A stretch of 64,000 nucleotides of DNA from positions 19,693-83,692 of the IMG/VR virus record IMGVR_UViG_3300030372_001977; one strand, given 5' to 3'. Each line of letters begins with the position of its first letter. Position 1 is the first letter of the stretch. The translations under genes were made by a program, and so were the position numbers. Shown one piece after another: positions 32,936 through 62,706 of the stretch. Origin of the DNA: a virus (lineage: Duplodnaviria > Caudoviricetes). Under the pieces are notes generated by a model. That model had not been told where the DNA came from. It made no database searches and was given only the letters and a program-made list of their open reading frames with translations.

Positions 32936-35900
32936 TTATTGTAGTGTTGTAAACCACTTATAAGCATCACCAGGAGAACCGGATCTAGTAAATCCTCTCC
33001 ATATAGGTAGTAGGTCCTCAAAATCTTTTCTTATTTTACGATCTCCTTTGTTAAATCTTCCTGTACGTCTTTGGTAGTATACGTCTTTTTCATCTACCCA
33101 CGGTGCAACACCGCTAAAGTATCCAAGGTCTGATCCTATTTGGCTCATTAATTCAAAACCTTTTTCTATTGGCCTTGCCGTTGCTGTAGGAGATCGCATA
33201 ATTCTAAATGCTTCTTTGTAACCTACAGCTGGATTCCACTGCATAATTTCTGTGTGGTATCTTTTAGCTTGGTACATAGCAAAGTTAACTGCCCAATCGT
33301 CTTCATCTGCATCTAGACTAGCTAAACCATTAACTATTGCTGCTGCAGCAATCATAGCAGATAGTTCAACAAATGTTCTCTTAACATTTTGACGTTCCAT
33401 CTCTGTCATTTTACTGTATGCAAACTCTCTATTTGATATAGACTCTCTTATCATATTCCAAAAAGATATATACATACCCTGTGTAACAGTTCCTAATTCT
33501 TCATCAACTCTTAACGTACTTCCTCCTCCGTGACCATAACGTCTTCTAATTCCTGGTAACAGCCAGCTTCTAAACAACATTAATAGTTTACCGTATGCTC
33601 TTCTTTGCAGCATAGGCTGATGCATCTTACCTTTAGTTTGATTTGTTCTTCTACTTAAACCTTGCACTAAACCTATAAAATCTAAACGGTTAAAGTTATC
33701 TACTCTAGGGTCTACAGACATTACACCATCTTTATCTATAGTTAACATGTCGTATAAATCTGCAGGTTCTCCTTTATCATTCTTTATAACATTTCCATCA
33801 CTGTCTTTTAACTTACCTTTTAAACTTCTCATTAAGCCAAGTAGTCTAGTACCGGATAGTTCATGTTCTGCAGCCTGTTGTAAAAACAATAAATTATTTG
33901 TACTTAAGAATTTTCTAGCTTTACCTCCTACTATTTGATTACCTTCATGATCTGTAAATTCTGTTAAAGCATCAAAATATTCCATTGCTTTACCAAGTTT
34001 AGTTTTAGGGTCAAATCTACCTATATCTGTCATCGCTCCCCCTTCAAACCAGTACTGAGTTTTAGCCCAAGCAAGGTCAGATGCAGACATAAATTGTTTT
34101 GCAACTGCTTCTTGCGCCATAGTAAGGTTATCAAGTATTAATTGGTTAGTACCTTGTAGCAAGTTAAATGATAGAGTGCTTATAGCTGTAAAGCTATTCA
34201 AAGCGCCTACTGCTTTAGTTGCAGAAATTCCTCTAAAGTTTTGCTTTAGTTCATTCTGACCAAACATAACAGTATCAATCCATTCGTCAACGTGTTTAAA
34301 GTTAAATGAATCTCCTTCTTTAAGTAGTGGCATTTTGAAGCCCATAGCTTCTGCAGTTTTTTGTATATACTCTATTCCTCCTGAGTTAGTTACTAATGTT
34401 TTTCTATCTTTTATAATATCTCTAAACAACATAACTTGACCTACAACTTCTGATTTAACTTTATAGTTGTGAGCCATATGTCTAAATTTATATAAACTAC
34501 TAGCAATATCTCTAGAGACATCCGATGCTGGGACTCTATTAGTATAGTATACAGGCACACGTTTATTTAGCTCACCACTATTTTGATCATAAGTACCAAA
34601 TTGGTCATCTGTTTCTACTATAGAAAATCCTTCTTTTAATATATCTTTAGTACCCGCTAGCAAACCTTGCTCTCTAAGTCTATCAACATCTTCTTTTCTT
34701 ATAGACGGCATTAAATAAGAAAACTTATCCCAAGAATTCTTATCCATACGGGTAGCCCCAACCATTTCGTGTCCTTTTTGTAACTCCTCTAAAACAAAAT
34801 TATAATATTCTTTTAGTATAGGATTATTTTGTATTTTAATATACTTTAAATTAGTATACTTATCTTTTCTAGGTCTTACCCATTCTCTCCTAGGAGAACC
34901 TGTAAGAGAGTTATAGTTTGCATCTTTAAATTTTATAAGCTCTTGCAATCTACCGGTTTGCATAGAGTACGCATCGCTGTCTTCTTGACCGTCCTCTTTT
35001 AACTTTTGTCTTAATTTTCTAGCTTGTTCTATTTGTTTATTTAAAACCTTTAGCTCTTGTCTCCAATTATCCACAGGCTCACTATTTTCTTTATCCCACT
35101 TCGTTTCTTCTTGCCTAGCCCTTTTGTAATTGTTTGATAATTTCCATGCTGAATAAGCAGCTTTAAAAGCTTCTTCAGACTGACCCTCTCTTTTTTGCGG
35201 TTGACCATACTCTATATTTATTTTTTTAATAAATGCTTGCTTATCTTTATAATATTTATCTGAGTCAATAGGATTAACTATAGCTAATCTTTTAACGCCC
35301 CTTATAGTTACCTCTTCTAGTAAATCATCATTTAACTTAGATACATCAGATTCAGATCTACCTTCTGCAAATTTATTATATGCGGCACTTAGTTTAGATT
35401 TAAACATACGAGTCATGTCATTCTTTCTTAAATCCGCATCTTGTACAGACTTAACAAATAATTGTATAGCATTATCATTACTATAGATTAGTGGGTCTAG
35501 TAAGTATGAAAAACCACTCTTATCTTTATTTGCTGCTCTTAGTTGTTTAACTAAGGCCCCATAGTTAGGGATCATTTTATTTTTAAGTTGCTCTACTTTT
35601 AAATCTACTTTTTTATTTAAGAATTCTACAGCTGTAATTTCTCCCGCATCAAAACTTTTTTTAAGCTCTTTGTATTCTATTGTTTGTGTGTTTAGTCCTT
35701 GTGTTCTTTTATACTTAATTGCATTATCAATCTGAGCTTGTAGTTGCGGATCAATTGCTTTATTATGGTAACCAGATAAAAACTGTGCCATTATAGGGAT
35801 TACCTCATCATTAAATTTCATACTATATACTCTAGCTGATCTTAAAATAGAATTTAATCTACCTTCTAGTGTATCAAACTTACCCTGATCTAAAACTTTA

Positions 35901-37297
35901 CCCTCGTTTTCTTTAACAAGCATAACAACTTCTAATGCTTGCATTACATCTAGTGCATCTAATTCAGTTTTTAATTTGTATATTTCACTCATATTTTCTA
36001 ATGTAGCTCTTTCGTTTTCAGGAAGCTCCATTATTTTATCATATGTATTAATTGCAGAAGCTAATGAATTTCCCATACTATTTACAGTAGCTAACAAATC
36101 CTCTACTTTTTCAACTTTATCTAAACCTTGCTTAAGATTCTGTAGTTTATAAATACGTTTTTCTCGTTCTTCTGGTGGTAATTGCTCTACTTCATATATT
36201 TCAGATGCTATCCGTACTTTTAAGTTTTGTACAATTTCTGTAAAGTATTCTGAATGATCTCTGCTTTCCTGTGTGTAAGGACTTATAGGATTAAGCATTC
36301 CCTCTGCACGAAGCTTTTTAGCAAACATTTCTTCTGCAATAATTGCAGCTGCGTTAGGTTCAATACCAAATAGTTTTCCAAATGCACGCAATATTCTATT
36401 TATAAATTGTTGTAGTGGACTAGGATTATCTCTTACAATTCTAGCGCCTTCTAACCCAATTGCTGTAGCTAGTACTTCTTTGTCTAATCTTTCCCCGGTT
36501 AATTCAGGATACATTTCCTGCACTTTTCTGTACAAGTTAGTATCTCTAAGCTGAGCTATTGCTGCAGCTACTACAGGGTCGTTAACACCTAACATGTCAA
36601 TATAAATATGACCAAACTCATGATAGGCAGTGTCATCTTTTACTTTGTTAGGATTAAGAACTACCACGGGATTTGTTTCTCCTGGCCTTACTTCTCCTAA
36701 GTTATCTATTTCAGTATCATATATAACATCTACTACAACACCTGCTTTAGAAAATGCCTCTTTTAACTGTACTACCTTAGACTCAAGCCTATCTATATCT
36801 TCTTTAGCCATGTCAGAGAACTTACTCTGATCACTAGTATTCTCTTGCCTTGCTTTCTCTGATAGATAATAATCTTCCGTATTTTCTTTACCTGCAACAA
36901 GACGTACATACTGATCTAATTCCGTCTGGTCGTTATATGTAAAGTCTGCAGTTTCTGGACCCTCTTTTTGTATAGTTTTTAGTAAAGCTTCATTAATATC
37001 TAACACATGCAACTCTGATGCTCTAGAATAAATAGTTTCTGGGGTTGTTTTTATAAAGGTAGTTTTTAATAATCCCGGATATTTACCATTTATTCTTTCT
37101 ATTTCTCTTAAGCTAGGTTGTAGATTAGCTTGGTTTAAATATGTAGAACCACGGAATTTTGTAGCTATACCATTGTTTTTCAATATTTTATACACTGCAT
37201 TAGAAGTTTTCTTTTCTGCAGATGTATTATCCATGTAGCCATATAACTCTGTATATAACTTACTTTCTACTCCATTTATATAATATTTACACGCCAT
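32936..37297 (-). CDS. Giant ejected virion protein with zincin-like metallopeptidase motif
   Basis: 1453 aa; AYHEFGHIY (HExxH); helical; hydrophobic segment near the C-terminus; only Cys at residue 3; adjacent to vRNAP as in crAss-like phages. Confidence 0.7.
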   Translation of the reverse strand: MACKYYINGVESKLYTELYGYMDNTSAEKKTSNAVYKILKNNGIATKFRGSTYLNQANLQPSLREIERINGKYPGLLKTTFIKTTPETIYSRASELHVLDINEALLKTIQKEGPETADFTYNDQTELDQYVRLVAGKENTEDYYLSEKARQENTSDQSKFSDMAKEDIDRLESKVVQLKEAFSKAGVVVDVIYDTEIDNLGEVRPGETNPVVVLNPNKVKDDTAYHEFGHIYIDMLGVNDPVVAAAIAQLRDTNLYRKVQEMYPELTGERLDKEVLATAIGLEGARIVRDNPSPLQQFINRILRAFGKLFGIEPNAAAIIAEEMFAKKLRAEGMLNPISPYTQESRDHSEYFTEIVQNLKVRIASEIYEVEQLPPEEREKRIYKLQNLKQGLDKVEKVEDLLATVNSMGNSLASAINTYDKIMELPENERATLENMSEIYKLKTELDALDVMQALEVVMLVKENEGKVLDQGKFDTLEGRLNSILRSARVYSMKFNDEVIPIMAQFLSGYHNKAIDPQLQAQIDNAIKYKRTQGLNTQTIEYKELKKSFDAGEITAVEFLNKKVDLKVEQLKNKMIPNYGALVKQLRAANKDKSGFSYLLDPLIYSNDNAIQLFVKSVQDADLRKNDMTRMFKSKLSAAYNKFAEGRSESDVSKLNDDLLEEVTIRGVKRLAIVNPIDSDKYYKDKQAFIKKINIEYGQPQKREGQSEEAFKAAYSAWKLSNNYKRARQEETKWDKENSEPVDNWRQELKVLNKQIEQARKLRQKLKEDGQEDSDAYSMQTGRLQELIKFKDANYNSLTGSPRREWVRPRKDKYTNLKYIKIQNNPILKEYYNFVLEELQKGHEMVGATRMDKNSWDKFSYLMPSIRKEDVDRLREQGLLAGTKDILKEGFSIVETDDQFGTYDQNSGELNKRVPVYYTNRVPASDVSRDIASSLYKFRHMAHNYKVKSEVVGQVMLFRDIIKDRKTLVTNSGGIEYIQKTAEAMGFKMPLLKEGDSFNFKHVDEWIDTVMFGQNELKQNFRGISATKAVGALNSFTAISTLSFNLLQGTNQLILDNLTMAQEAVAKQFMSASDLAWAKTQYWFEGGAMTDIGRFDPKTKLGKAMEYFDALTEFTDHEGNQIVGGKARKFLSTNNLLFLQQAAEHELSGTRLLGLMRSLKGKLKDSDGNVIKNDKGEPADLYDMLTIDKDGVMSVDPRVDNFNRLDFIGLVQGLSRRTNQTKGKMHQPMLQRRAYGKLLMLFRSWLLPGIRRRYGHGGGSTLRVDEELGTVTQGMYISFWNMIRESISNREFAYSKMTEMERQNVKRTFVELSAMIAAAAIVNGLASLDADEDDWAVNFAMYQAKRYHTEIMQWNPAVGYKEAFRIMRSPTATARPIEKGFELMSQIGSDLGYFSGVAPWVDEKDVYYQRRTGRFNKGDRKIRKDFEDLLPIWRGFTRSGSPGDAYKWFTTLQ

Positions 37298-50591: not shown

Positions 50592-53486
50592 TTAACTTTT
50601 TATTTTAAAACTTTGAGATTCCTCATCCCAGGTTAAGCCTTCTATAAAAGGTATAGTACTTCTTTGATAAACACCTGTATCAGATCCTATAGCTTCTGCC
50701 ATAGCCATATCTGCTTTATAATCTAAAATATCACCAAAACCTGTTTGTAAACTTTGTGCTAAACTACTTATTCCTGCATACTTTTGGAACTCCATATCAT
50801 CCTGACGTTTTTGTCTTCTTTGTGTATTCATTTCATCTACCTGATCTTTTCTAGCAGCTTCTGCTCTAATCATTTGAGCATTTACTATAGATGCTTGTTG
50901 AGATCTTCTTAAGTTATCTAAAGTCATTTGCTGTTCTAGCTGTGCTTCAGTATTTTGTACACCTATATTAGCCCTAGTTTCTGCAGCTCTAATTTTCATT
51001 TTAGCGTCTTGACCTCGGCTAAATGCCATCATTTTATTAACCATGTTAGCTGGTCCTCCACCAGAAGTTTCAATATATTTATTCATACCTCTTACCTCTG
51101 CTCCAACATTTGCTATATCTTGATTATAATCATATCTTTCTAATCTTGGAGCTACTCCTCTTTCTGGTACAATAGGTGTTCTAAACCCTTTAGTATAGCC
51201 CGCCTGCTGTGCAGCAGGTTGTTTGTATAACAAAGAAAATGCTGCTGGTATTATACCTGCTCCCATTCCCGCATAAGCTTGCCAAGGAACTTTTGCAGTT
51301 TTATCTTTATCTTTATCTTCCTCATCTTCCTCGTCAATTATCACATCTGTCGGATTATACTCAGGCATTTCTACTGTTTGTAATTCTGGCTCAGTAGTAT
51401 TAACAGTTAATTGTTTTATTTCTTTAGGTTTAATGCTAATTAGATCTTGATCTTTTCTTTCCCACTGATCTGTATCCTCATTATATTCTAATTCGTTTTC
51501 AGCCCTTTCATAGTCTTCTATACTTTGAATATCTAAATCTAAAAGATCTTTAGCTGCTTTATCAAACCTGTCTGTATCTCCACCTTCTGGCATTGGTCCT
51601 GGAGTAGTTGGTAACATGTCTGAATCAGTAGGTAATAATTGTAAAGGTTTTTGCTCTATGGTTAAAGGTTTACTGTCTTCAACGTCAACCTGATCTATAA
51701 GAGTATTTTCTAATATTTCTTTCTCACTCATACGAATTCCTGTATTAAGAGTTTCTTCTCCTAATAACCCATCATCCTCAATTTCTCTGTCTGGATATTT
51801 AGCATTATAAGCTTGTTGATATGCTAAAACTTTGGCTGGATCTTGTAAATCACTAAACTTAGTTATACCTGCAGCATCTAATACTTCTTGATCTACGTTA
51901 TCCATCCATGTTGGACCAAAATCCTCTCCTTGACTTTCTATATAACTCTGCAGCTGAGGATCATCAAGATAAAACTTTTCATCTCCAATAGTTACTTCTG
52001 GTTGATTCTCTGGTATACCTTCTGTTCCTGGTAAGAAAGACTCTTCCCCTTTTCTTTTCTTTTCAAGGCTTTCATCTGCTTTAACACTATCAATTAATTT
52101 TTGTATCTCAGATGGTTTTATTTTTTTAGGAAGCTTTATACCAAGATCTTTAGCTTCTTGTATAAGAGCTTCGTTTCTTGCTTTTATTTCTTCTTTTCTT
52201 ATTCTTTCTTGCTCTGCTTTTTCTTCAGCTTCTCTTTCCTCTTGCTCTAAAATCATTTCTTCTGCTTCTATTGCATCAGATAGTTCTGACTCTTGAGTCT
52301 CCCATTCTGTTAATGCTGCTTCATACTCTGCTTTAGCTGCATTATACGCTTCTAATTCTTTTTGAAAAGCTTCTTCTCTTTTCTTTTCTGCTCTCATTTC
52401 AGCTGCTGTAGGTGTTCTACCAAAATAAGCAGTCTTTTTAAATTTAGGTTCTTTTAAATCAAAAGTAGGTTTATTAGCTTCATGCTTATCATATGCTTTT
52501 TGTGCATTTTCTAACGCTCCACCTGTTTGATATTTAACCACTCCCCCTAGCTTAGCTACTTTATTAGGATTTCTACCTGCTGCTTTTTCTTGCATTCTAG
52601 CAAGCATATTAATTTCTTCTTGGTCTCCACCATTTCTTAGTATATCTTTATGCATATCAGCAAATGACTTACCACCTTTCTTTAAATAAGACGAAAAGAA
52701 ATAATCTCTTTTACCTCCTTTTTTAGCCATACTTACCTGGTCCATAGTTTCTCCGTCTTCTACCTCTGTTTGACTATCCATCATAATACCACCTTCATCA
52801 TGTGTTTGCCCTTCAAACTCTACAGCATCACTACCAGGTATAGGTTTTACCATTCCTCCAGGTAATCTCATTCCACCCATTTGCTTCATACTACCCATAC
52901 CTAGAAGACCTGAATGCGCTGCTAAATCACCAACTGTTATATCTCCACCACCAGCTCTTTCAGTATTTTTACCTAAGTTAGGTAATTTATCACCATATCT
53001 TTTAAACGTTTCATACCCAAGAGCTCCAGCTGTCAGTGTTCCTCCGGCTACTCCTATAACAGGAGCAAACCTAGGAAGTGCAGCTTGTAGACCTTTTTTA
53101 ACTACTTGTTTACCTGCAAATTCTCCTGCACCTTTAGCGTAATCTACAACATTAAAACCTCCTGCTTGCATAACAGACATTGCTGCTGATAAATCTCTAT
53201 TAACATCGGCAACATTAACACTACCCCCATAAGTAGGAGCGTCTTTGCCAAAAGGTCTATAAATTTGTTCTCCTGTAAATGTATTTACTCCGGTTTTAGG
53301 ATCTACAACTGGTTGTGCATATGCGTTAGTAGCTCCTAAAATCATACCTGCAGGACCACTAACTCTTTTAGCAACTCCTTTGATAAAAGGTTTTATTCCT
53401 TTTAATCCAAACTTAAGTGCTTTTCTTAAAGAACTTTTCTTTGATCCTCCTGATTGATATTTTGTTTTTAATTTTTTTCTATGCAT
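50592..53486 (-). CDS. Putative cargo (poly)protein with repeated xQxGG/xKxGG motifs
   Basis: 964 aa, Cys-free; motifs YQSGG, MQAGG, MKQMGG, AKKGG, LKKGG, AKLGG, YQTGG; conserved-looking EFEGQTHDEGG...EVEDGETM domain. Confidence 0.55.
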   Translation of the reverse strand: MHRKKLKTKYQSGGSKKSSLRKALKFGLKGIKPFIKGVAKRVSGPAGMILGATNAYAQPVVDPKTGVNTFTGEQIYRPFGKDAPTYGGSVNVADVNRDLSAAMSVMQAGGFNVVDYAKGAGEFAGKQVVKKGLQAALPRFAPVIGVAGGTLTAGALGYETFKRYGDKLPNLGKNTERAGGGDITVGDLAAHSGLLGMGSMKQMGGMRLPGGMVKPIPGSDAVEFEGQTHDEGGIMMDSQTEVEDGETMDQVSMAKKGGKRDYFFSSYLKKGGKSFADMHKDILRNGGDQEEINMLARMQEKAAGRNPNKVAKLGGVVKYQTGGALENAQKAYDKHEANKPTFDLKEPKFKKTAYFGRTPTAAEMRAEKKREEAFQKELEAYNAAKAEYEAALTEWETQESELSDAIEAEEMILEQEEREAEEKAEQERIRKEEIKARNEALIQEAKDLGIKLPKKIKPSEIQKLIDSVKADESLEKKRKGEESFLPGTEGIPENQPEVTIGDEKFYLDDPQLQSYIESQGEDFGPTWMDNVDQEVLDAAGITKFSDLQDPAKVLAYQQAYNAKYPDREIEDDGLLGEETLNTGIRMSEKEILENTLIDQVDVEDSKPLTIEQKPLQLLPTDSDMLPTTPGPMPEGGDTDRFDKAAKDLLDLDIQSIEDYERAENELEYNEDTDQWERKDQDLISIKPKEIKQLTVNTTEPELQTVEMPEYNPTDVIIDEEDEEDKDKDKTAKVPWQAYAGMGAGIIPAAFSLLYKQPAAQQAGYTKGFRTPIVPERGVAPRLERYDYNQDIANVGAEVRGMNKYIETSGGGPANMVNKMMAFSRGQDAKMKIRAAETRANIGVQNTEAQLEQQMTLDNLRRSQQASIVNAQMIRAEAARKDQVDEMNTQRRQKRQDDMEFQKYAGISSLAQSLQTGFGDILDYKADMAMAEAIGSDTGVYQRSTIPFIEGLTWDEESQSFKIKS

Positions 53487-53497
53487 AGTTATATTTT

Positions 53498-54835
53498 TTA
53501 AGCGGCATATCCATATCTAGGCATACCCATTCTCATACCTCCCATCTGTGCAATAACATTTCTACCTAAATCATATCCAGAATATGTTTTTTGCTGCATC
53601 TCTCCAGCTCTCATTCTAGCCATTTGTGCCCCATATCTTTTACGTAACTGTTTATTGTCTTTTTGTACTTTTTCTTTTCTTTTTGCTTCTAGTTTAGCTT
53701 CTTCTTTTCTAGCCTTCTTTCTTCCCGCTAGTCCTGTCCATATAGCCTTACCAGTACCAATAAGAGCTCCTGCTGCAGCACCTACTGCATTTCCTACACC
53801 AGGTATTACAGATCCTAACATAGCTCCGTATCCTGCATATTCTCCAGCATCTCCTAATATATCAAAAGATGCTTCTTTAGCTGTCCAAGTAGTTTCATCT
53901 TGATCATCAACAAAAGCACCCCCTATGTTTCCTACTAAACTTGCTGCCATAGCAATTGCATTTGGATTTACAGAAGATGCTGCTGCACTTTTTATACCTT
54001 CTTTACCAACTGCCTTTCCAGTTTCTTTAAGAGCTTCTTTTCCAACTTCCTTAGCAACTTCTTTACCAACTGTTTGAACTCCTGTTTCAACTAATTCTGG
54101 TACAGCCTGCTGTCCAAACGCAGACAAAGCATCTTTTGCTCCAAAGCCTACAAGCTCTCCTGTAATTTCTTTACCAGCTTGCTTAGTTGCTTGCTGAGCT
54201 AGCATACCACTTACTTCTGACTTAAGAGCAGATCCAGCAGCTTGACTACCTGCCCACTTTAAACCTTGTTGTTGTAATTGTTGTTGTGCTCTTTTTTGCA
54301 AAAATTTTGTACCTTGTTCTATACCCATTTTTGCATAACCTGCTATTTGTTCAGTTTTTTGTCCGGCCTGTGCTCCTGCTTGCTGAACAGCTACTTTATC
54401 CATTTCTTCTTGCTGCTTTAGCTCTTGTTCAGTTGATTCAGCCTCTCTTGTTAAAGCTTCTTTTTCTTGCTCCATAGCAGAAATTCTTTCTTCTTGTAAT
54501 CTAGGATCACTCTCTTGGTATACAATATTAGCTGTGCTTCCTGCATTACCTTGTCCTGCAGCTGCCACTGTATTGTCAGCATACATACCACCCATCTGAT
54601 GCATCATGCGTTCCATATAACCACCTTTTTTCATATATCTTGCAGATGCACGTTTAGCTTTTTTAATTTCTTCTAAACTTTTTTTAGCGTCTGTAAACCT
54701 ATTAATTTCAGAATCATATCGAGAGCGTATTCCTCCTGATTGTAACATTGATTTAATTCTGTTTGCCTGACTTCTGTGCATTGCAGATGCTTTTAAAAGT
54801 TCTTTTGATATTTTTTTAAGTTTTTTTGTTTTCAT
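53498..54835 (-). CDS. Putative cargo protein with glycine-zipper transmembrane region
   Basis: 445 aa; GYGAMLGSVIPGVGNAVGAAAGALIG; KE-rich amphipathic repeats; LQSGG, MKKGG, HQMGG, AQMGG. Confidence 0.55.
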   Translation of the reverse strand: MKTKKLKKISKELLKASAMHRSQANRIKSMLQSGGIRSRYDSEINRFTDAKKSLEEIKKAKRASARYMKKGGYMERMMHQMGGMYADNTVAAAGQGNAGSTANIVYQESDPRLQEERISAMEQEKEALTREAESTEQELKQQEEMDKVAVQQAGAQAGQKTEQIAGYAKMGIEQGTKFLQKRAQQQLQQQGLKWAGSQAAGSALKSEVSGMLAQQATKQAGKEITGELVGFGAKDALSAFGQQAVPELVETGVQTVGKEVAKEVGKEALKETGKAVGKEGIKSAAASSVNPNAIAMAASLVGNIGGAFVDDQDETTWTAKEASFDILGDAGEYAGYGAMLGSVIPGVGNAVGAAAGALIGTGKAIWTGLAGRKKARKEEAKLEAKRKEKVQKDNKQLRKRYGAQMARMRAGEMQQKTYSGYDLGRNVIAQMGGMRMGMPRYGYAA

Positions 54836-54836
54836 A

Positions 54837-57800
54837 CTATCTTAATATTTTTCTTGCACCTACATTCGTAGAGTACAAATTTAGTAAATTATTTGTAACA
54901 TTATCATAGATTAAACGAATTCCTACCCATTTATCCATAAATTTTCTTTTTTTATCCCAATTTTTAGCTAGATCTATAAAACTTGCGTTTACAATCTCAT
55001 GCATACCGTCTACCAGAAACATATTATTTATAGAAGAAGTTGTTACAGTTCCTGTATTAGCTCCCCCAATAACGTTAGTTCCTGCAGGAGTATAGTAAGC
55101 TCCTGTATTAGTTGCTAAGCTTGCTAAATCTCTAAACTGATTTATTTTCCAGTCATTACCAACTCTCCTAACATTGATTAAATATTCTAATTTATCTATA
55201 TTAGCAGAAGTTAATGTTGTACCATCTGCGGTAATTTGTGCTCCCACACCTGTTATATTCTGCCAGTAAGAACCTATACCTGAAATTTGCATTGTATTGT
55301 ATATTACAAAACTAGTAAAACCATGTTCTAAGACACTAATACCTGCCTGATTAAATGTTTCTAAAGTATAGCTTATATTAGAAGTTAGTGTATCCATGCT
55401 TTTAAATTCATTGTGTATAAATTCAAATTCAAAGGCATAGAAGTTAATAGCATTTTCAAACTCTGATCTAGTGTAATAACCATTAGTATTTTCTTGATAA
55501 AGAATACCTTTATTATCTTCAGCGTTGTGTTCCCATATTCCAATATTACAGAATGTAGATCCAACCCAATTAACAGCAGGAGTTAATGGAGCAATACTAG
55601 TTCCAGGTCTTGCATACTTATCAGTTGCAGAATAAAAGTTTATGGATGTATTAAAGTAAATGTAAGGAATATAATCATGGAAGCTGCACCATATTCCTAG
55701 TTCTGGGTAGTAGGATATTGTCCATCCAGTTTTTGTAAAATATGATATGTTATCCCAATCTATAGGTGTCCAGGTGGTTTTAACAATTTGCGGAGGTCCT
55801 GTATTTATTATCGTATTAGCAACCTCATAATAACATCCGCTAGAATTCCATCTAATATCTCCAGTATTATGCCAATTAAAATTACTAGGAAATAGAGTAG
55901 GATCATATGCGTTGTATCCAGTTACAAATAAATGTGTAGGTTTTAAATCTCTTTTAGTTAATAATACTCTTTTGTATTTAGGGTCATAAACACTGTGAAA
56001 GCCTAGTCCTATTATTGGATTATCTATATTACAAGACTGTTCAAATCCATATGCTTCTAATCCCGATCTTAGATTTTCTCTAAACCATTCTTCCATTCCT
56101 AAATTGCTTATCTCTGCTAACTCTTGCTTCATTAAAAATACTTTTTTAGAAGCAACGTCTACAAAAAAGTATCCATATCTAGTAGTTAGTGCTGCATACT
56201 GAGATTGAGTTCCTGCAAAACCACCACTTGTTTGTATTAACTCATCAGGGTCTTGTTGGAATATATCCCCACTTCCTACAAAAGCCTCACTACCATCTTT
56301 CATACTCATTGTTTGTTTACCCTTAGCAGCAAATAAACTTTCTTCCATATGAAAATATAAAAGATTATTAAAAGTAGAAAGTTTCCATAAATCCCCTCTA
56401 TTTTTAGGTAAGTCTTTAAACTGATTAGCTAGAAAAATTCTATAGTTATCAACTAAACTAGTAGGATCAGCCTTAGTGCTTCTATGAGTTCTTGTAGGAA
56501 AATCTGTTTGATTAACTTCTTTTATAGGTAAAGGAAATGCAGGTCTTATAGTATTAAGTTCAGAATAATTACTATTATATCTTAAATTATCAAAGTGCAT
56601 AAAATCTTTAGGGCCTGCATTTCTAAGAATAGATTTAGCTATGCCTTGTGGGAAGTACTGACTATCAGCATCTTCTTGATGTCTAAAGTTAATATTATCT
56701 GTGCTTTCTACTATATGATAATGTATACCTTTTTCAGGTTCTGATGTTAACTCTGATTGATTATGTTTTAGAGCTGTGCTTATTCCATATCTACATATAA
56801 ATGTATCTCCTCCAAATATACCTGTTTGGCTGATATTGATAGGATTCTCATTAAAATCTCTTTGTATTGTATTTTGTAAAGTAGTCACAGAATAGTCTGC
56901 ATTATAATTATATAGTAATCCGGTAGGCCCTTCCCAATCAAAGTTTGCAGCACTACCATTATCTTCAAATATAAAATTATTTAAATCTTGACCTAACACC
57001 TCAAACCCTGTCCAAACTAAATCTTGGTCATCTATAGATTTATATACATCTGTTTTAAAAGCTCTTAAATTTGCAATAGCTGTATTGCTTCTAACCCACC
57101 CATTAGCCGGACTCCAATCTCCATTCCCATCTAAAGTGTTAACAAGTATAGCGTCATTTAAACCACCAATACCATATTCTCCTAAATTAGTATTTTGTCC
57201 GTCAAAAAATCCTGCATTATCTCCTCCTGTTCCCCCACCATCACTTGCACTAGATTGAGTTTGTCCTGGATAACTTCTAAGGTGAGTGTATGCTCCTATA
57301 GCATGATCATTCATTAGCTTAAATACTATACAACTTTCACCAAACTCATTAAATAACTTTCCTCCAAAACCTAAAGCTTTACCTTCAAATATGCTATCTC
57401 CTAATAAATAAGTTTTTGCTTTTTGCCCAATTATTCTAGGCATAGTTAAATATGGGGGAGTTTTATAAATAGCCCCAATAAAAATAGCTGACTTCATATA
57501 TTGAGGGTAACAATTAAATTGTGCATCCCATCCCCAAGTTTCTTCTATTTCATCAATACCTGTAGCACTATTAGTTTTAATCCTAGTAACCATTTTTTTA
57601 TCTTGCTCTAAACCAGGACCATTCCAAACTAAATTTTCTGAGTAGTATTCAATACTTATATGTGTTGCTGCCGCTAAACTATTTTTAGTTCTTAGTAAAT
57701 AAAAATCATGAAAAGAAAATACATTCATAGCGGGATCATCCATGTCTATTGCCCCTACTTGTGTAGGACCTTCATCATAAAAAGGTATATTTGGATAGTC

Positions 57801-60590
57801 TTGCCAGTCTCTCATCCAAGCATCTAAATTATAAAATATTTCAGGCTGTTCTTGCAGTGTTGCTAAAATTTGAGAAGACTCTGCAACTTCGCCTGGCGTA
57901 GTTCCACTTGCAGCTTCTTTACATATTCCTATTCTATCATCTTGTTGTAAACCTGGAATTAAAGGAGCCTGACCTAAAACAGTTCTGTCTGCGTGTGTTC
58001 TTTTAGCATAGTATATTCTAAATCCTTGAACTTTGTTTGCTATTGATCTAGGAACCATAACATCCTCTAATGTAAAACCTAATCTTTGAACAGCATGATT
58101 AACATCAGCATCATTATAATCAGCTAAAGTTGTAGCTCCTGATCCAGAGGTAATTACAAATTCTATAAAACTAAAATTATAACCAAAATCTATACACTGA
58201 TGACAATATGCATTATAACCTGCCTGGAACATAGAACTTCCATTAGCAGTTTCTTTTTGAGATTCTAAATAAATAACATCGCCCGGACCCATAGTAATTG
58301 TTGCTGCTCCAGATGCTCTCCAACTATTATAACCAACCCATAATTGCCCTGATAGCCCACACCCACAATCAGAATTAGCATGACCACAAGAACCACTATA
58401 CGCACCCCCTGTTGCATCACTACCGTTAGTCCAATTAATATCAGGAGTATCTACATCTGATGCCTCAACTTGCCATCCGTTGGCAGCTGTGTTAGATATA
58501 AGCCTAGTTTTTATATCACCGTTAGGATCAGTAGTAGTCTTTTGTCTGTGAACTACTTGCCACCTAACTGTAACAGTCATAGTTTGATCAGCTTTAAAAT
58601 AGTTATTATTAAAATCCCACAAAGCGGATTCCATAGCTGGATCATTTTGAGTTGGTTGCGGTCCAGGATTACTACAAATACCTCCAGCCCTTCTCCCCAT
58701 ATCAAATACATTTCTAGTCCAATTAGAACAACAGTTATACCATTCAGGATGACTATTATTAAAAGTTTGTCTACCCCCATAAATCATAACTAATGTGCCG
58801 TTCCAAGCCGGAATTGTATTTACAGTTCCTATAGATCCTGTAGTTCTGCACTTTCTATCCTCTAAAATAGTTTTATATTCTAGATGTCTATTAGAAGGAA
58901 AATGATGATGCCTAACATTTAAACCTTTTAAGTCATTAGATGTGTATCCACTATTATCCCATATTTCAAAATTACTATTGTCAGGATAAAACTCTGTGTT
59001 GTTTTGCCAGTAGTTCATATTCCTGTAAAGAGCTAAACTCCAGTTATTAGCGTTAGCCCCATCATGACTCCAAGAGTCTAAGAAATGAAATCTTTTAGCT
59101 TGTCCTGTAGAAAGTAATTCAAAATCTGTCCATAGTCCCCCATAAGTATTACCTGCTAAACTAGTTACATCTTCTAATTCATCGTCCTGATATTCTCTTC
59201 CTGGTATATGATAAGCATAGCTCATTGAGCCATCTTTCATAATAAAAGCTATATAAAATGCATATACTTCACCCCTCATATAACCTTTCCACCGAAATGC
59301 ATTAGGGGCATACCTATAAGATTCTGCAGGTTTTGTTTGAACTACAGCTCCTCCAAAATTATCTACAGGAGTACTTCCCCATCCTGTTTGAAAATTATCT
59401 ACTGCTGCAATGTATCTATCAAAGTCGTCAAATGTCCTAACCTCTGGGTAAAGTTTAATATTGTTTGCATATTTTTGATACCCTAAATCTGGAGAGCTAG
59501 TTAAATTACCTAAGTAAAGAACTCCATCTAACTGCTCAATAGTTTTTGCAGTTTCATAAGCTACGGTGTCAATTATTATTTCATTTACTGATGCAGGGGT
59601 AAAACCTTCTAGCCCAGTAAAAGTTATTTTCATTTCTCCCCACTGATCAGTATCTATCTCTATATCGTTTATTCTTAAAGCCTCTGTAGCATCCCCCATT
59701 TTCCTAATAATAACAGGACGAACATATCTATAGTTTGTGTTAAAGTTATTTACTTTCCATGCAATACATTTTGTAGTTTGACTGCCCTCCTTCATACCAT
59801 CCTTTTTAGTAGTAGGTTTAGTAGCGTCAAACTCTTCTACAATAGGTACAGGATTACTAACAGTTAAAAAATTAGTAGCGACATTATCATCATCTACATA
59901 AGCTAAAGCTAGGTAGTATACACCTGTTAGTAAACCTCCTCCAGCATTAACTGATTTTTGATATGGACTAAAAGCCCAATATATATCATGTAAAAATGTA
60001 TGAGGTACTGGTCCGGAATAAGGAAATAAATTTAATATACTTATATCATCAATATTTGCAGAAGTTATTCCATATAACCTTGTAGGATTACCTATTCCTC
60101 CAGATCTTATTTGTCTATCTATATTAAAAGCTCTAGGAGGGTTTAAATCGTCTGTCCAGTAAACTACTAAATCTCCTTTAGAATCTATTTTAAAAGTACC
60201 TTCTATAGGGTGTGTTTCTTGAAAATTTAAATCATTTGTTAACTTACCAGGAGAAAGAATAATAGGATTAAATAGTTTTGTGTACACACCATTTTCCCAC
60301 ATACCTATTTCACTTCTAGGAGCTGTTGCAGGAGGAGAGTAAGCAGTTACAACATCTTTAAGAAATAATACAACTCTATCATCATTAACTTCAACAGCTC
60401 CAATAATTTTTTCTTTTTGTCCAGACGATTCAAAGTTTAAAAATCCAGCAAGCTTTGTTCCTCCTTCATTAGAAATAGAACCTTTCTTTTCATTAAGAAT
60501 TGTATTTTTAGCATATCTCCAACTTCCGGCAGGTTGGTCAATATGCCCAGTATCTTTAAATAATCCTTTTATAAATCTTTTTTCTGCCAT
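54837..60590 (-). CDS. Tail stabilisation/muzzle protein (P22 gp10/crAss muzzle-like)
   Basis: 1917 aa; N-terminus FIKGLFKD...SWRYAKN...ISNEGG; YYLALAY and LYLGNL beta-propeller segments; between ring protein and cargo genes. Confidence 0.8.
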   Translation of the reverse strand: MAEKRFIKGLFKDTGHIDQPAGSWRYAKNTILNEKKGSISNEGGTKLAGFLNFESSGQKEKIIGAVEVNDDRVVLFLKDVVTAYSPPATAPRSEIGMWENGVYTKLFNPIILSPGKLTNDLNFQETHPIEGTFKIDSKGDLVVYWTDDLNPPRAFNIDRQIRSGGIGNPTRLYGITSANIDDISILNLFPYSGPVPHTFLHDIYWAFSPYQKSVNAGGGLLTGVYYLALAYVDDDNVATNFLTVSNPVPIVEEFDATKPTTKKDGMKEGSQTTKCIAWKVNNFNTNYRYVRPVIIRKMGDATEALRINDIEIDTDQWGEMKITFTGLEGFTPASVNEIIIDTVAYETAKTIEQLDGVLYLGNLTSSPDLGYQKYANNIKLYPEVRTFDDFDRYIAAVDNFQTGWGSTPVDNFGGAVVQTKPAESYRYAPNAFRWKGYMRGEVYAFYIAFIMKDGSMSYAYHIPGREYQDDELEDVTSLAGNTYGGLWTDFELLSTGQAKRFHFLDSWSHDGANANNWSLALYRNMNYWQNNTEFYPDNSNFEIWDNSGYTSNDLKGLNVRHHHFPSNRHLEYKTILEDRKCRTTGSIGTVNTIPAWNGTLVMIYGGRQTFNNSHPEWYNCCSNWTRNVFDMGRRAGGICSNPGPQPTQNDPAMESALWDFNNNYFKADQTMTVTVRWQVVHRQKTTTDPNGDIKTRLISNTAANGWQVEASDVDTPDINWTNGSDATGGAYSGSCGHANSDCGCGLSGQLWVGYNSWRASGAATITMGPGDVIYLESQKETANGSSMFQAGYNAYCHQCIDFGYNFSFIEFVITSGSGATTLADYNDADVNHAVQRLGFTLEDVMVPRSIANKVQGFRIYYAKRTHADRTVLGQAPLIPGLQQDDRIGICKEAASGTTPGEVAESSQILATLQEQPEIFYNLDAWMRDWQDYPNIPFYDEGPTQVGAIDMDDPAMNVFSFHDFYLLRTKNSLAAATHISIEYYSENLVWNGPGLEQDKKMVTRIKTNSATGIDEIEETWGWDAQFNCYPQYMKSAIFIGAIYKTPPYLTMPRIIGQKAKTYLLGDSIFEGKALGFGGKLFNEFGESCIVFKLMNDHAIGAYTHLRSYPGQTQSSASDGGGTGGDNAGFFDGQNTNLGEYGIGGLNDAILVNTLDGNGDWSPANGWVRSNTAIANLRAFKTDVYKSIDDQDLVWTGFEVLGQDLNNFIFEDNGSAANFDWEGPTGLLYNYNADYSVTTLQNTIQRDFNENPINISQTGIFGGDTFICRYGISTALKHNQSELTSEPEKGIHYHIVESTDNINFRHQEDADSQYFPQGIAKSILRNAGPKDFMHFDNLRYNSNYSELNTIRPAFPLPIKEVNQTDFPTRTHRSTKADPTSLVDNYRIFLANQFKDLPKNRGDLWKLSTFNNLLYFHMEESLFAAKGKQTMSMKDGSEAFVGSGDIFQQDPDELIQTSGGFAGTQSQYAALTTRYGYFFVDVASKKVFLMKQELAEISNLGMEEWFRENLRSGLEAYGFEQSCNIDNPIIGLGFHSVYDPKYKRVLLTKRDLKPTHLFVTGYNAYDPTLFPSNFNWHNTGDIRWNSSGCYYEVANTIINTGPPQIVKTTWTPIDWDNISYFTKTGWTISYYPELGIWCSFHDYIPYIYFNTSINFYSATDKYARPGTSIAPLTPAVNWVGSTFCNIGIWEHNAEDNKGILYQENTNGYYTRSEFENAINFYAFEFEFIHNEFKSMDTLTSNISYTLETFNQAGISVLEHGFTSFVIYNTMQISGIGSYWQNITGVGAQITADGTTLTSANIDKLEYLINVRRVGNDWKINQFRDLASLATNTGAYYTPAGTNVIGGANTGTVTTSSINNMFLVDGMHEIVNASFIDLAKNWDKKRKFMDKWVGIRLIYDNVTNNLLNLYSTNVGARKILR

Positions 60591-61474
60591 TAGCTTCTAT
60601 ATAAATCTTCTCTTGTATTTAAATGTTCAAATGCTGTATCATGTCTATTTATGTCTGGGATGAGTCTAACCCATTGATTCATAAACGATTCGTATTTATC
60701 TATATCTGGATAGTTAGCTGCATTTCTTGCTTGTGTGCAGTAATATTTCCATTGTTGTTCTGCAAATGTATAATTAATACCATTGTTTTTAATATCTGGT
60801 TTAGATAGTAATATCTTTTTATATATGTACCAAAACATTGCTTCAGAAAAACTAATGTCATCTGGCACCAGTGGGTAACAATCTTCATCTAATGGAAAAG
60901 CCATATAACTTAAACATATTTTACCACTAGCAAAAGATGTTTTTATGTAATCACAATCTATTATATATGTGTCTTCGTAGTTTGTGTTTTCATTAACACA
61001 TCCTGTACAATGCATGCTTTTATGAAATGTACTTGCTCCATACTGCAAAGGCTGTAATTGATTTCTACTTCTAAAGTATACATTTTCAACTACAACTATT
61101 CTGTTATTTATTTCATTTAAAATAGAAGCAGTATCAGCATATGCTATACCGTCATCTTGTGCGCTTTTAATTTGATCTTGTAGTTCTTTTACTCTAGTGT
61201 TTAGTTTATCTAACTCTGTAGAATCAACTGCAGACACGCTGTTATTAATAGCAACTTGATTAATATAATACAAATCAGAAGGCATTAATGTTTTATGATC
61301 TGACACATCTAAAACACATTGTTTTTGACACAGTTGTGCAGAAGATCCTATGTGTTCTAAAGCTTCTCCTATCCACTCTATAGCATCATCAATCCAGTCA
61401 TCGTTATCTGGTTTTAAATCTCTAAAGATTTTTCTAATTATTGTCTTACTAGACTTTGTTTTATATATACTCAT
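60590..61474 (-). CDS. Tail ring/adaptor protein
   Basis: 294 aa; IEWIGEAL...LPxDLYYI and KICLSYMAFPLDEDCYPLVPD...EAMFWYI patterns of crAss ring proteins. Confidence 0.7.
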   Translation of the reverse strand: MSIYKTKSSKTIIRKIFRDLKPDNDDWIDDAIEWIGEALEHIGSSAQLCQKQCVLDVSDHKTLMPSDLYYINQVAINNSVSAVDSTELDKLNTRVKELQDQIKSAQDDGIAYADTASILNEINNRIVVVENVYFRSRNQLQPLQYGASTFHKSMHCTGCVNENTNYEDTYIIDCDYIKTSFASGKICLSYMAFPLDEDCYPLVPDDISFSEAMFWYIYKKILLSKPDIKNNGINYTFAEQQWKYYCTQARNAANYPDIDKYESFMNQWVRLIPDINRHDTAFEHLNTREDLYRS

Positions 61475-61791
61475 TATTCAAATATGTTTGGTATTGGCGG
61501 CTCTAAAAACCCTCCTGTTTCATACGCTTTAGGTTTACAAGTTCCCCCCATTCTGCAATTCCACTTTTTTAAAGATAAACTTAATCTATCTTTACCTGTA
61601 TTGTTGCTAGGCTTTTGTCTTTTACGCATACCCTTCATTCTAGCACAAAAAGATTTTTTTCTTTTCTTTGCTTTTCCTTTAGGGTTCTTTTGTGTAACAG
61701 GTCTTCCTACACCAGCACTCTTAGAGCCTGCTGCAGTTAATCCACCTGTAGGACTTTTACCCGCTTTTCTTTGCCATAGTGGTGTTGCCAT
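61474..61791 (-). CDS. Small basic virion protein (DUF6321-like)
   Basis: WQRKAGKSPTGGLTAAG...RKKSFCARMKGM...SLKKWNC; C-terminal YETGGFLEPPIPNIFE. Confidence 0.6.
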   Translation of the reverse strand: MATPLWQRKAGKSPTGGLTAAGSKSAGVGRPVTQKNPKGKAKKRKKSFCARMKGMRKRQKPSNNTGKDRLSLSLKKWNCRMGGTCKPKAYETGGFLEPPIPNIFE

Positions 61792-61793
61792 GT

Positions 61794-62270
61794 TTAATGT
61801 TTTTTAAATTTTAAATACGCTAAATCATCTTTTTTTAATAGATGTATTAACCTTTCTTTATTTCCCTTTAATCCTCTTGTAGCATCAAACCTGTAAACTG
61901 ACTTGTTTGGAATTTTACATTTACCCTTTCTCCAATAGTATTTACAATAAAACTCATCAGTGTGATATATGTGCCATCTTACCCCTTCACCGGTTTTAGC
62001 ATCATATAAATCTTGACCTTCTTCTAGGAGTTCTTTTTTATATTTATTACTTTCTCCCCAATCTAATCTAGGCGATCTTGGATCTCTTTCTCTCCTAATA
62101 ATAGATAAGGTAGAAAGATTATTACCCATGTTAAATTCTTTACCCTCTAATATATAATCTATTATCATTATATTAAATTCTTGCACAATACTAGTATAAA
62201 TACTTTTATCTATAGTATCATTAGAATCTTTTACATAATTCTCATATACATCTTTTAAGGTATATAACAT
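61794..62270 (-). CDS. IHF-like conserved crAss protein
   Basis: EFNMIIDYILEGKEFNMGNNLSTLSI...YRFDATRG: HU/IHF-like helix plus beta arm; typical position between ring genes. Confidence 0.55.
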   Translation of the reverse strand: MLYTLKDVYENYVKDSNDTIDKSIYTSIVQEFNIMIIDYILEGKEFNMGNNLSTLSIIRRERDPRSPRLDWGESNKYKKELLEEGQDLYDAKTGEGVRWHIYHTDEFYCKYYWRKGKCKIPNKSVYRFDATRGLKGNKERLIHLLKKDDLAYLKFKKH

Positions 62271-62271
62271 T

Positions 62272-62706
62272 TTATATATCGTCTATGTTAGGAATTTTAG
62301 GCTCTAAGAATCCACCAGACTTGTACATCATCTTTTTCATTCCTCCACCCATCATTTTTTTCTTACCACCACCTTTGTACATCATCTTCTTTTTAGAACC
62401 ACCCATACCATAGCTCATAGTAGATTTTTTCTTTTTCTTTTTCTTATGAACTCCTCCATGCTTTTTAATAGTTCCTTTTTCTTTTTTTCTTAGATATATA
62501 TCTGCTTGTGTAATTTCCCCATCTTTATTCATATCAGGAAATCCTCCTTTTTTCTTTGCTGTTTTTGCTGAACGTTCTAACGCTTCATCAGTTACAGTAC
62601 CTTTTCCAGGTCTAGATGTACCACGCTTTTTAGCACGGTTCATGTAGTAGTACAAGCCTTTTTTAGCTGTTCTACCATCTTTAGTTTTATGTGTTCCTTT
62701 ACTCAT
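62272..62706 (-). CDS. Highly basic modular small protein (putative DNA-condensing core protein)
   Basis: 144 aa, Lys-rich; EF-hand-like FPDMNKDGEITQAD; repeated GG motifs; C-terminal YKSGGFLEPKIPNIDDI. Confidence 0.55.
   Translation of the reverse strand: MSKGTHKTKDGRTAKKGLYYYMNRAKKRGTSRPGKGTVTDEALERSAKTAKKKGGFPDMNKDGEITQADIYLRKKEKGTIKKHGGVHKKKKKKKSTMSYGMGGSKKKMMYKGGGKKKMMGGGMKKMMYKSGGFLEPKIPNIDDI

What the first reader, a model, noticed from the sequence alone, without database searches (positions are those of the whole stretch)
50592..62706. Recurrent [YMAL]-[QKE]-x-G-G motif across unrelated virion cargo proteins: candidate maturation-protease cleavage code
Seen in the 964 aa protein (KYQSGG, VMQAGG, MKQMGG, MAKKGG, YLKKGG, VAKLGG, KYQTGG), the 445 aa protein (MLQSGG, YMKKGG, MHQMGG, IAQMGG), the 105 aa protein (CRMGG, AYETGG), the 144 aa protein (AKKKGG, IKKHGG, YGMGG, MYKGGG, MYKSGG) and the 311 aa protein (AYQKGG, nt 4208-4222). 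Phe or Met often follows. I did not see this pattern in the MCP, portal or terminase, or recurring in the replication proteins. Established: adenovirus protease cleaves (M/L/I)-x-G-G|x and the ASFV SUMO-protease-like enzyme cleaves G-G|x in core polyproteins. Inference: an adenain/Ulp1-like or other GG-specific protease processes this phage's internal proteins into many small peptides. No such protease is recognisable in this window.
Basis: partly seen in the sequence, partly recalled or inferred. Interest (0 to 1): 0.82.

Follow-up and report, generated by a model that had tools for sequence, protein, structure and literature searches.

The report
Gly-Gly junction tag on crassvirus cargo
A five-residue signal (aromatic or Met, then Gln/Lys/Glu, any residue, Gly-Gly) marks the ends and module joints of some proteins that this marine crAss-like phage probably packs and injects; it is conserved in relatives, but whether it is a docking handle or a protease cut site is still open.

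Summary
All 19 listed instances exist. In the other 66 proteins of the 83.7-kb genome it occurs once against 3.7 expected. A stricter core, [YFM]-[QKE]-x-G-G, is conserved in relatives: 114 of 120 homologues of the 964-aa protein carry it (385 copies against 22 expected). Muzzle, ring, C2-like and polymerase-block proteins sit at or below expectation.

The phage is a marine crAss-like virus, and the 964-aa protein corresponds to cargo protein C1. The signal lies 13 residues from N-termini, 9-15 residues from C-termini, and at module joints. One joint ends a conserved DUF192 module, after which relatives carry different C-terminal parts. Three listed instances are invariant residues inside the portal-binding domain, not free signals.

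No adenain, Ulp1 or C39 type protease is present.

Cleavage is neither shown nor excluded. I favour an uncut docking or hinge tag (0.45) over a cleavage code (0.3).

This scan has noted the same signal on several other crAss-like genomes. I found no published description in the papers searched.

The parts
50592..53486 (-). 964-aa cargo protein C1 homologue. Core signal copies at residues 10-14 (nt 53445-53459), 106-110 (53157-53171), 201-205 (52872-52886) and 319-323 (52518-52532).
   Evidence: Gene lies after the muzzle gene, as in crAss001.
52557..52871 (-). Portal-binding domain of C1 (residues about 206-310), flanked on both sides by signal copies. The Lys-containing GG copies inside it are fold residues.
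   Evidence: hhalign of domain profile A5 against crAss001 gp45 residues 400-600: E 2.2e-5, probability 76%, 41% identity over 76 columns, aligning to gp45 440-546. ESM Atlas neighbours carry PF25725. Invariant columns.
53498..54835 (-). 445-aa protein with a basic N-terminal leader, signal copies at residues 30-34, 67-71, 78-82 and 428-432, and Gly-rich hydrophobic segments. The last copy is followed by a conserved tail of about 12 residues.
61474..61791 (-). 105-aa basic protein: a DUF6321 domain followed by a signal copy and a C-terminal tag (nt 61477-61515).
   Evidence: Pfam DUF6321, E 2.4e-10. In cyanophage Syn19 the same domain ends its protein without the tag.
62272..62706 (-). 144-aa Lys/Met/Gly-rich basic protein with an EF-hand-like loop directly after one GG, and the same C-terminal tag after the last copy (nt 62275-62316).
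3692..4627 (-). 311-aa protein next to the portal gene: a DUF192 module (residues 1-142) ending in the signal (nt 4208-4222), then a C-terminal part that differs between relatives.
   Evidence: Pfam DUF192, 28.4 bits against a cut-off of 27. tblastn matches in 16 relatives stop at query residues 140-172, 11 of them at 140-144. The junction signal is present in 17 of 19 relatives.
32936..37297 (-). 1453-aa cargo protein with a zincin-like metallopeptidase domain (His-Glu-x-x-His at residues 226-230, nt 36608-36622). This is the candidate protease if the signal is cut.
   Evidence: His, Glu, His and a downstream Glu are invariant in 14 genomes. The AF2 model has a zincin-like topology. Weak fold matches to M34-type and other zincins. 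Literature on phi14:2 gp65.
27466..28638 (+). DUF2201_N putative metallopeptidase (HExxH at residue 72) fused to a VWA-like domain. This is a second candidate protease; it lies in the replication-side gene block.
   Evidence: Pfam E 1.3e-20 and 4.2e-13; sequence.
28658..29836 (+). AAA-type ATPase adjacent to the metallopeptidase-VWA gene, a possible MoxR-like partner.
   Evidence: Weak Pfam AAA_22 match only; the pairing is an inference.
2520..3596 (-). 358-aa acidic, helical, probable scaffolding protein. Its C-terminal acidic-hydrophobic tail resembles the tags that follow GG in the small basic proteins.
   Evidence: Gene order is portal, DUF192 protein, this gene, major capsid protein.
54837..60590 (-). 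Muzzle protein (context only; no signal copies).
   Evidence: Pfam crAss_MUZ, E 7.3e-40; signal at expectation in 51 homologues.

Best explanation
The signal [YFM]-[QKE]-x-G-G is a short linear tag that this clade of marine crAss-like phages places at the ends and module joints of one class of packaged proteins. That class comprises cargo protein C1, the 445-aa protein, the small basic proteins encoded between the ring genes, and the DUF192 protein encoded next to the portal gene. The most likely mechanism is that the aromatic or Met residue plus the Gly-Gly turn forms an uncut handle and hinge. A common partner inside the particle would recognise it: the 12-fold portal and tail-barrel lumen, or the procapsid interior. 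This would recruit and position unrelated modules, and several copies per protein would add avidity. Shown: enrichment, restriction to these proteins, conservation, and position at termini and joints. Inferred: the binding partner, and the absence of cleavage.
For: 1. The signal is restricted to genes interleaved with portal, ring and muzzle genes. It is absent from capsid, portal, terminase, rings, muzzle, the 790-aa protein and the three giant polymerase-block proteins. So it is not a tag for all cargo, only for one class.
2. It is close to termini: 79 of 118 N-proximal copies start at residue 14. C-terminal copies lie 9-15 residues from the end in three different families, each with its own conserved tail.
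3. Several small proteins carry a copy only 4-5 residues from the first Met. Cutting there would release almost nothing, which fits a tag better than a cut site.
4. The copy before the portal-binding domain is nearly universal. In crAss001 gp45 the ordered portal-bound domain is residues 425-552, and it starts with an aromatic-Gly-Gly followed five residues later by a second Gly-Gly. Here the spacing is four residues. If these are equivalent, that copy is ordered and uncut in a solved virion.
5. There is no depletion of Pro directly after GG: 19 of 459 contexts.
6. A relative whose polymerase-block proteins are fused into one 3780-aa protein has no copy at the fusion point or anywhere else in it.
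7. The tails after the C-terminal copies resemble the C-terminal tail of the probable scaffolding protein, which suggests a shared binding site in the procapsid.
Against: A strict Gly-Gly with specificity mainly on the N-terminal side (P5, P4) and a variable P1' is what protease sites look like. The modules that follow GG start immediately (EF-hand-like loop, other conserved modules), as in polyproteins. A conserved zincin domain travels in the same particle. No binding partner has been identified. The equivalence with the crAss001 site rests on an unaligned stretch: hhalign starts at gp45 residue 440. crAss001 and phi14:2 lack this exact signal.
Confidence: 0.45

Rival explanations
1. Cleavage code. 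A protease cuts after Gly-Gly, removing short terminal peptides and separating modules, as adenovirus protease and ASFV pS273R do for core proteins. The best candidate enzyme is the zincin domain of the co-packaged 1453-aa cargo protein. Other candidates are the DUF2201_N-VWA metallopeptidase or a host enzyme.
For: Strict GG with P5 and P4 preferences and a variable P1'. Position at module joints and 9-15 residues from the ends. Modular swapping directly after the signal in the DUF192 family. A zincin motif and downstream Glu invariant in 14 genomes. The literature proposes that the orthologous domain processes virion proteins. The catalytic part of the model aligns best, though weakly, with site-specific M34-type endopeptidases: PPEP-3 at Z 6.5 over 142 residues, lethal-factor-like domains at Z 5.8-6.1. 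The signal is mildly under-represented in other proteins: 0 against 1.9, and 3 against 8.0.
Against: There is no direct evidence of cutting. The fused polymerase polyprotein lacks the signal. Pro at P1' is not depleted. Some copies lie 4-5 residues from the N-terminus. The probable equivalent in crAss001 is ordered and continuous. The zincin domain occurs in crAss001 and phi14:2, which lack this signal. No clan CE or C39 enzyme is present. The fold matches are below the tool's own significance guide.
Confidence: 0.3
2. Low-complexity sticker. The Tyr/Met plus Gly-Gly units, with Gln- or Lys-rich spacers, are cohesive or DNA-binding elements. They would let the proteins condense with each other and with DNA inside the particle, with no specific receptor or protease.
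For: C1 homologues carry 12-residue units rich in Tyr, Gln, Met and Gly, with GG spaced 12 apart. The small proteins are Lys/Met/Gly-rich and highly basic. AF2 gives low confidence for these regions.
Against: The exact register (Y/F/M at -3, Q/K/E at -2, invariant GG) is kept in otherwise unrelated contexts, including the end of a folded DUF192 module. Enrichment is about tenfold over composition-matched shuffles.
Confidence: 0.12
3. Chance or composition: the pattern reflects only Gly-, Lys- and Met-rich composition.
For: The five proteins are Gly-rich (8-16% Gly), and the pattern was defined after seeing the data.
Against: Shuffles that keep composition never reach the observed counts. The signal is conserved at homologous positions in distant relatives.
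Confidence: 0.02

Closest known systems
Cargo protein C1 (gp45) of Bacteroides phage crAss001 (Bayfield et al. 2023, PMC10172136; PDB 7QOG and related entries)
   Same: Same gene position after the muzzle gene. Homologous portal-binding domain (hhalign E 2.2e-5) and a weakly similar C-terminal region (E 0.003, probability 10%). Basic N-terminus followed by aromatic-x-x-Gly-Gly. Many aromatic-Gly-Gly sites next to the ordered segments.
   Different: gp45 has no copy of the Y/F/M-Q/K/E-x-G-G form. The Pfam model PF25725 does not score on this genome. No shared signal across several proteins was described in that paper.
Adenovirus protease (C5) and ASFV pS273R (clan CE) maturation sites
   Same: Gly-Gly at P2-P1. 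Several unrelated internal, partly DNA-binding basic proteins carry the site, and short terminal peptides are delimited by it.
   Different: No clan CE enzyme in the genome. The hydrophobic position is P5, not P4. Cleavage has not been shown.
Capsid-targeting and cargo-loading peptides (T4 internal-protein targeting sequence; encapsulin cargo-loading peptides; from my own knowledge)
   Same: Short terminal peptides shared by unrelated cargo of an HK97-fold shell, joined by flexible Gly-containing linkers.
   Different: Here the signal also recurs internally at module joints and in several copies. The largest cargo proteins lack it. The binding partner is unknown.
Zincin-like domain of phi14:2 gp65 and the HExxH subdomain of the phage N4 virion RNA polymerase C-terminal domain
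   Same: A conserved HExxH domain packaged beside a virion RNA polymerase, with no known substrate.
   Different: No link to a Gly-Gly signal has been reported for either.
MuF-type polymorphic head proteins encoded next to portal genes (from my own knowledge)
   Same: A conserved N-terminal module next to the portal gene, with exchangeable C-terminal parts, as in the DUF192 protein family.
   Different: The N-terminal module here is DUF192, not MuF, and the joint carries the Gly-Gly signal.

Membership tests
Clan CE (adenain C5 / Ulp1 C48) Gly-Gly maturation system | Virus-encoded His-Asp/Glu-Cys protease of family C5, C48 or relatives | tested here: not met
   Six-frame HMM searches for PF00770 and PF02902 found no match at E <= 10. 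Pfam scans of 57 predicted proteins, nearly all those over 130 aa, found no cysteine protease. Distant, unmodelled relatives cannot be excluded.
Clan CE (adenain C5 / Ulp1 C48) Gly-Gly maturation system | Site consensus with Met/Leu/Ile at P4 and Gly-Gly at P2-P1 | tested here: not met
   GG is kept, but the hydrophobic or aromatic residue is at P5 and P4 is Gln/Lys/Glu.
Clan CE (adenain C5 / Ulp1 C48) Gly-Gly maturation system | Cleavage after Gly-Gly in virions | not testable with these tools
   Needs virion proteomics; no cultured member of this clade was found.
Double-glycine leader / C39 peptidase system | C39 peptidase domain | tested here: not met
   PF03412 gave no match at E <= 10.
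Crassvirus cargo protein 1 (PF25725 crAss_CARG1) | Match to the family model or to gp45's portal-bound domain | tested here: inconclusive
   The Pfam model finds nothing in the genome. A domain profile aligns to gp45 residues 440-546 at E 2.2e-5, and ESM Atlas neighbours carry PF25725.
Crassvirus cargo protein 1 (PF25725 crAss_CARG1) | Gene directly downstream of the muzzle gene and upstream of the polymerase block | tested here: met
   The order here is muzzle, 445 aa, 964 aa, 790 aa, then the three giant proteins. In crAss001 the order is gp44 to gp47.
Zincin metallopeptidase (phi14:2 gp65-like) | HExxH plus a conserved downstream Glu as third ligand | tested here: met
   H81, E82, H85 and E129 of alignment A4 are invariant in 14 genomes.
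Zincin metallopeptidase (phi14:2 gp65-like) | Zincin fold | tested here: inconclusive
   The AF2 model (pLDDT 64.6) has a helix, three strands, then the active-site helix. Foldseek's best hits are zincins but only at E 0.03-0.8. VIA-align gives Z 5.8-6.5 to M34-type enzymes, below the tool's guide value.
Zincin metallopeptidase (phi14:2 gp65-like) | Proteolytic activity on the Gly-Gly signal | not testable with these tools
   Needs an enzyme assay.
DUF192 (PF02643) | Score above Pfam's gathering cut-off | tested here: met
   28.4 bits against a cut-off of 27, E 1.9e-6, residues 48-134.
Cargo-targeting peptide (T4 or encapsulin type) | Short terminal peptide shared by unrelated packaged proteins | tested here: met
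   N-terminal leaders ending in the signal, and C-terminal tails after it, in four families.
Cargo-targeting peptide (T4 or encapsulin type) | Binding to shell, scaffold or portal | not testable with these tools
   No complex prediction or structure is available. There is only a resemblance between the tags and the scaffold tail.

The most novel reading that the evidence does not exclude
Crassviruses mature their ejection proteins with a particle-borne, site-specific zincin endopeptidase (the HExxH domain of the gp65-like cargo protein). It would cut after a conserved aromatic-Q/K-x-Gly-Gly code, releasing terminal targeting peptides and separating modules. This would be a phage counterpart of adenovirus or ASFV core maturation that uses a metalloprotease instead of a clan CE cysteine protease.
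Probability: 0.2. Interest if true: 0.85.

Novelty: new variant of a known kind. Interest (0 to 1): 0.6.

Why it matters
How crassviruses choose, order and release the several megadaltons of protein they inject is unknown. A short conserved code restricted to the portal- and tail-associated class of cargo gives a direct experimental handle: mutate Gly-Gly, map new termini, and look for the pocket or the enzyme. It could also predict packaged proteins in uncultured crassvirus genomes. If the code is cut by the co-packaged zincin domain, that domain would gain its first substrate, and phages would gain a maturation system analogous to that of adenovirus.

Tried and rejected
1. DUF192 module as the protease. 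It has the classical position (portal, X, scaffold, capsid). However, a 100% complete relative with no DUF192 match (G001) keeps the signal: 2 copies in C1 and 5 in the locus. No catalytic set is conserved in the distant members.

2. The conserved 200-330 domain of C1 as a LAS-type metallopeptidase (invariant His, Asp, His). Rejected because it aligns to the portal-bound domain of gp45.

3. Close relatives. A single-sequence tblastn against cultured phages and a first IMG/VR scan found nothing. An alignment-based scan then found 59 loci.

4. PDB sequence searches with the 311-aa protein, the C1 profile and the zincin profile gave only noise.

5. Pfam scan of the 45 largest C1 homologues, looking for an inserted protease module: only MORN repeats and one lysozyme were found.

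6. AF2 of C1 residues 1-340: mean pLDDT 46, too low for a fold search. It shows only that the signal copies lie in low-confidence stretches around two ordered pieces.

7. Signal at fusion points of polymerase-block proteins: absent.

8. PF25725 on the genome: no match.

9. Cultured crassviruses crAss001 and phi14:2 as models: neither carries this form of the signal.

10. Literature searches for a described Gly-Gly signal or protease in crassviruses: none found apart from the zincin remark.

Full report
**What the window is.** The window is bases 19693-83692 of an 83,692-bp IMG/VR virus record estimated 97% complete. Pfam identifies several crassvirus virion proteins:
- major capsid protein (1000-2472, E 2e-82);
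- a P22-like portal (4608-6914);
- ring proteins 1 and 2 (60590-61474 and 62718-63410);
- the muzzle protein (54837-60590);
- a ring 3/4 protein just upstream of the window.

Homologues come almost entirely from marine metagenomes. This is therefore an uncultured marine crAss-like phage. On the minus strand the order is muzzle, 445 aa, 964 aa, 790 aa, then three giant proteins of 1575, 2059 and 1453 aa. This mirrors gp44 to gp50 of crAss001. In crAss001, gp45 and gp46 are cargo proteins C1 and C2, and the giant proteins are packaged polymerase-associated proteins.

- All listed peptides exist.
No shuffle in 5000 exceeded 7.
- The other 66 proteins of the whole genome have 1 copy against 3.7 expected.
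- Among GG dipeptides, the combination of Y/F/M at -3 and Q/K/E at -2 occurs at 23% of sites in the five proteins and at none of 94 sites elsewhere.

**Conservation in relatives.** This is the independent test, because the pattern was chosen after the fact.
- Of 120 homologues of the 964-aa protein, 114 carry the stricter core [YFM]-[QKE]-x-G-G. In total there are 385 copies against 22 expected, and 82 have a copy starting near residue 14.
- An alignment-based scan of IMG/VR returned 59 related loci. Observed against expected in these loci:

| Family | Observed | Expected |
|---|---|---|
| C1 | 103 | 10.9 |
| 445 aa | 17 | 2.5 |
| 144 aa | 9 | 0.6 |
| Muzzle | 8 | 8.8 |
| 1575 aa | 3 | 8.0 |
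| 790 aa | 4 | 3.0 |
| Rings and the 158-aa protein | 0 | - |

. Relatives are not independent samples, but the contrast between families in the same genomes is clear.

**Where the signal sits.**
- In C1 it follows a conserved 13-residue basic leader.
- It recurs in 12-residue Tyr/Gln/Met/Gly units.
- It ends inserted modules: compare P0006 with P0016.
- It directly precedes and follows one conserved domain.

That domain aligns to residues 440-546 of crAss001 gp45, the portal-bound domain (hhalign E 2.2e-5). ESM Atlas neighbours point the same way.

In the 445-aa family, a basic leader ends in the signal, followed by a conserved Met-Tyr-x-Asp/Asn stretch. A second copy lies 9-15 residues from the C-terminus, before a conserved tail.

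The small basic proteins between the ring genes are mosaics of modules: DUF6321, an EF-hand-like loop, other conserved pieces, and Lys/Met/Gly repeats. These modules start directly after GG and are shuffled between genomes. Many of these proteins end in the signal plus a 12-13-residue acidic-hydrophobic tag.

In the 311-aa protein next to the portal gene, a DUF192 module (above Pfam's cut-off) is conserved in relatives only up to residues 140-150. It ends in Pro-Ala-x-[Tyr/Met]-Gln-x-Gly-Gly in 17 of 19 relatives. What follows is an unrelated C-terminal part, in open frames of 190 to 1408 residues.

The signal is therefore a junction and end mark of one class of proteins. Their genes are interleaved with portal, ring and muzzle genes.

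**Is there a protease?**
- Six-frame searches for Peptidase_C48, C5 and C39 found nothing.
- Pfam scans of 57 predicted proteins, nearly all those over 130 aa, found no cysteine or serine protease.
- The tagged proteins contain no cysteine, apart from two in the 105-aa protein.

Two metallopeptidase-like domains were overlooked.
- **Zincin domain in the 1453-aa cargo protein.** It has His-Glu-Phe-Gly-His at residues 226-230. The two His, the Glu and a Glu 48 residues downstream are invariant in 14 genomes. A similar motif sits near the C-terminus of crAss001 gp47. The literature describes the phi14:2 orthologue gp65 as carrying a Zincin-like protease domain that might activate the polymerase or digest peptidoglycan. 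N4's virion polymerase has a comparable HExxH subdomain. An AF2 model (pLDDT 64.6) shows a zincin-like topology. The fold matches are weak but point consistently at zincins. The longest alignments are to M34-type site-specific endopeptidases, at Z 5.8-6.5.
- **DUF2201_N-VWA protein.** The gene at 27466-28638 encodes a DUF2201_N putative metallopeptidase with a VWA domain, next to an AAA-type ATPase gene.

**Cut or uncut?** Nothing here shows cleavage.

For cutting:
- the strict Gly-Gly;
- preferences at P5 and P4 with a variable P1';
- short terminal peptides delimited by the signal;
- modules that begin immediately after GG;
- a co-packaged protease-like domain.

Against cutting at every copy:
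- A relative with a fused 3780-aa polymerase-block protein has no copy in it.
- Pro directly after GG is as common as background, 19 of 459.
- Some copies lie 4-5 residues from the first Met.
- The zincin domain is present in crAss001 and phi14:2, which lack this signal.
- In crAss001 the ordered, continuous portal-bound domain begins with an aromatic-Gly-Gly followed by a second Gly-Gly. This looks like the counterpart of the copy before the domain here. That stretch lies outside the hhalign alignment, so the equivalence is only probable.
- The C-terminal tags resemble the tail of the probable scaffolding protein, which hints at a shared docking site.

I therefore rank an uncut docking or hinge tag first (0.45), a cleavage code second (0.30), a cohesive low-complexity element third (0.12), and chance last (0.02).

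**Earlier notes of this scan.** After forming this reading I found that follow-up agents had noted the same kind of signal on at least six other crAss-like genomes. They reached the same open verdict, and two leaned towards an uncut tag. These are unchecked AI notes and I do not count them as independent evidence. I found no published description in the papers searched.

**Verdict.** This is a real, conserved and apparently undescribed signal. The new contribution here is a named candidate enzyme and a clear class of tagged proteins.

Noticed in passing
window 32936-37297 (-), residues 226-230: Strictly conserved zincin motif with a downstream Glu in the last giant cargo protein. A similar motif sits at residue 2157 of crAss001 gp47, so the domain has moved between genes of the polymerase block.
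   Followed up: yes
window 27466-29836 (+): DUF2201_N putative metallopeptidase fused to a VWA-like domain, next to an AAA-type ATPase gene. crAss001 has a VWA protein (gp52) next to a 208-aa protein at the end of its polymerase block.
   Followed up: partly
window 3692-4627 (-) and loci L064-L081: The gene after the portal encodes a DUF192 module joined to C-terminal parts that differ between relatives (open frames of 190-1408 aa). This architecture is like polymorphic MuF head proteins. The C-terminal part here has a Glu-Ser ... Gly-x-x-Gly-Gln stretch that looks transglycosylase-like by eye, but Pfam does not support it.
   Followed up: partly
window 2520-3596 (-) and loci L102-L125: The probable scaffolding protein ends in a conserved acidic-hydrophobic tail (Phe/Val-Asp-Leu-Asp-x-Leu-Asp-Leu type) that resembles the C-terminal tags of the small basic proteins in the same genomes.
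   Followed up: partly
window 61474-61791 (-); L062:3068-4231: The DUF6321 domain of the 105-aa protein is about 46-55% identical to the C-terminus of a 388-aa protein of T4-like cyanophages (Syn19_101, between terS and later genes) and to a pelagiphage HTVC103P protein encoded just after the capsid gene. There the domain ends the protein, without the Gly-Gly tag.
   Followed up: partly
window 62272-62706 (-), residues about 55-68: An EF-hand-like Asp-x-Asn-x-Asp-Gly loop directly after a Gly-Gly in the 144-aa basic protein. Relatives carry this or a second Asp-x-Asp-Gly-Asp-Gly-Asn type of loop at the same kind of position.
   Followed up: no
L101:10360-12141 (phi14:2 g070): The phi14:2 protein that holds the C1 portal-binding-domain signature also carries two HExxH motifs, so cargo protein 1 itself can carry zincin-like modules in some crassviruses.
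   Followed up: no
window 61794-62270 (-): The 158-aa protein between the two small basic protein genes occupies the position of the IHF/HU-like gene of crAss001 (gp42) and phi14:2 (g073). The basic tagged proteins cluster around it.
   Followed up: no
control output: A Peptidase_C48 match above the cut-off exists in Bacteroides thetaiotaomicron, so a host-encoded Ulp1-like enzyme in Bacteroidota cannot be dismissed as a source of Gly-Gly cleavage. The host of this phage is unknown.
   Followed up: no
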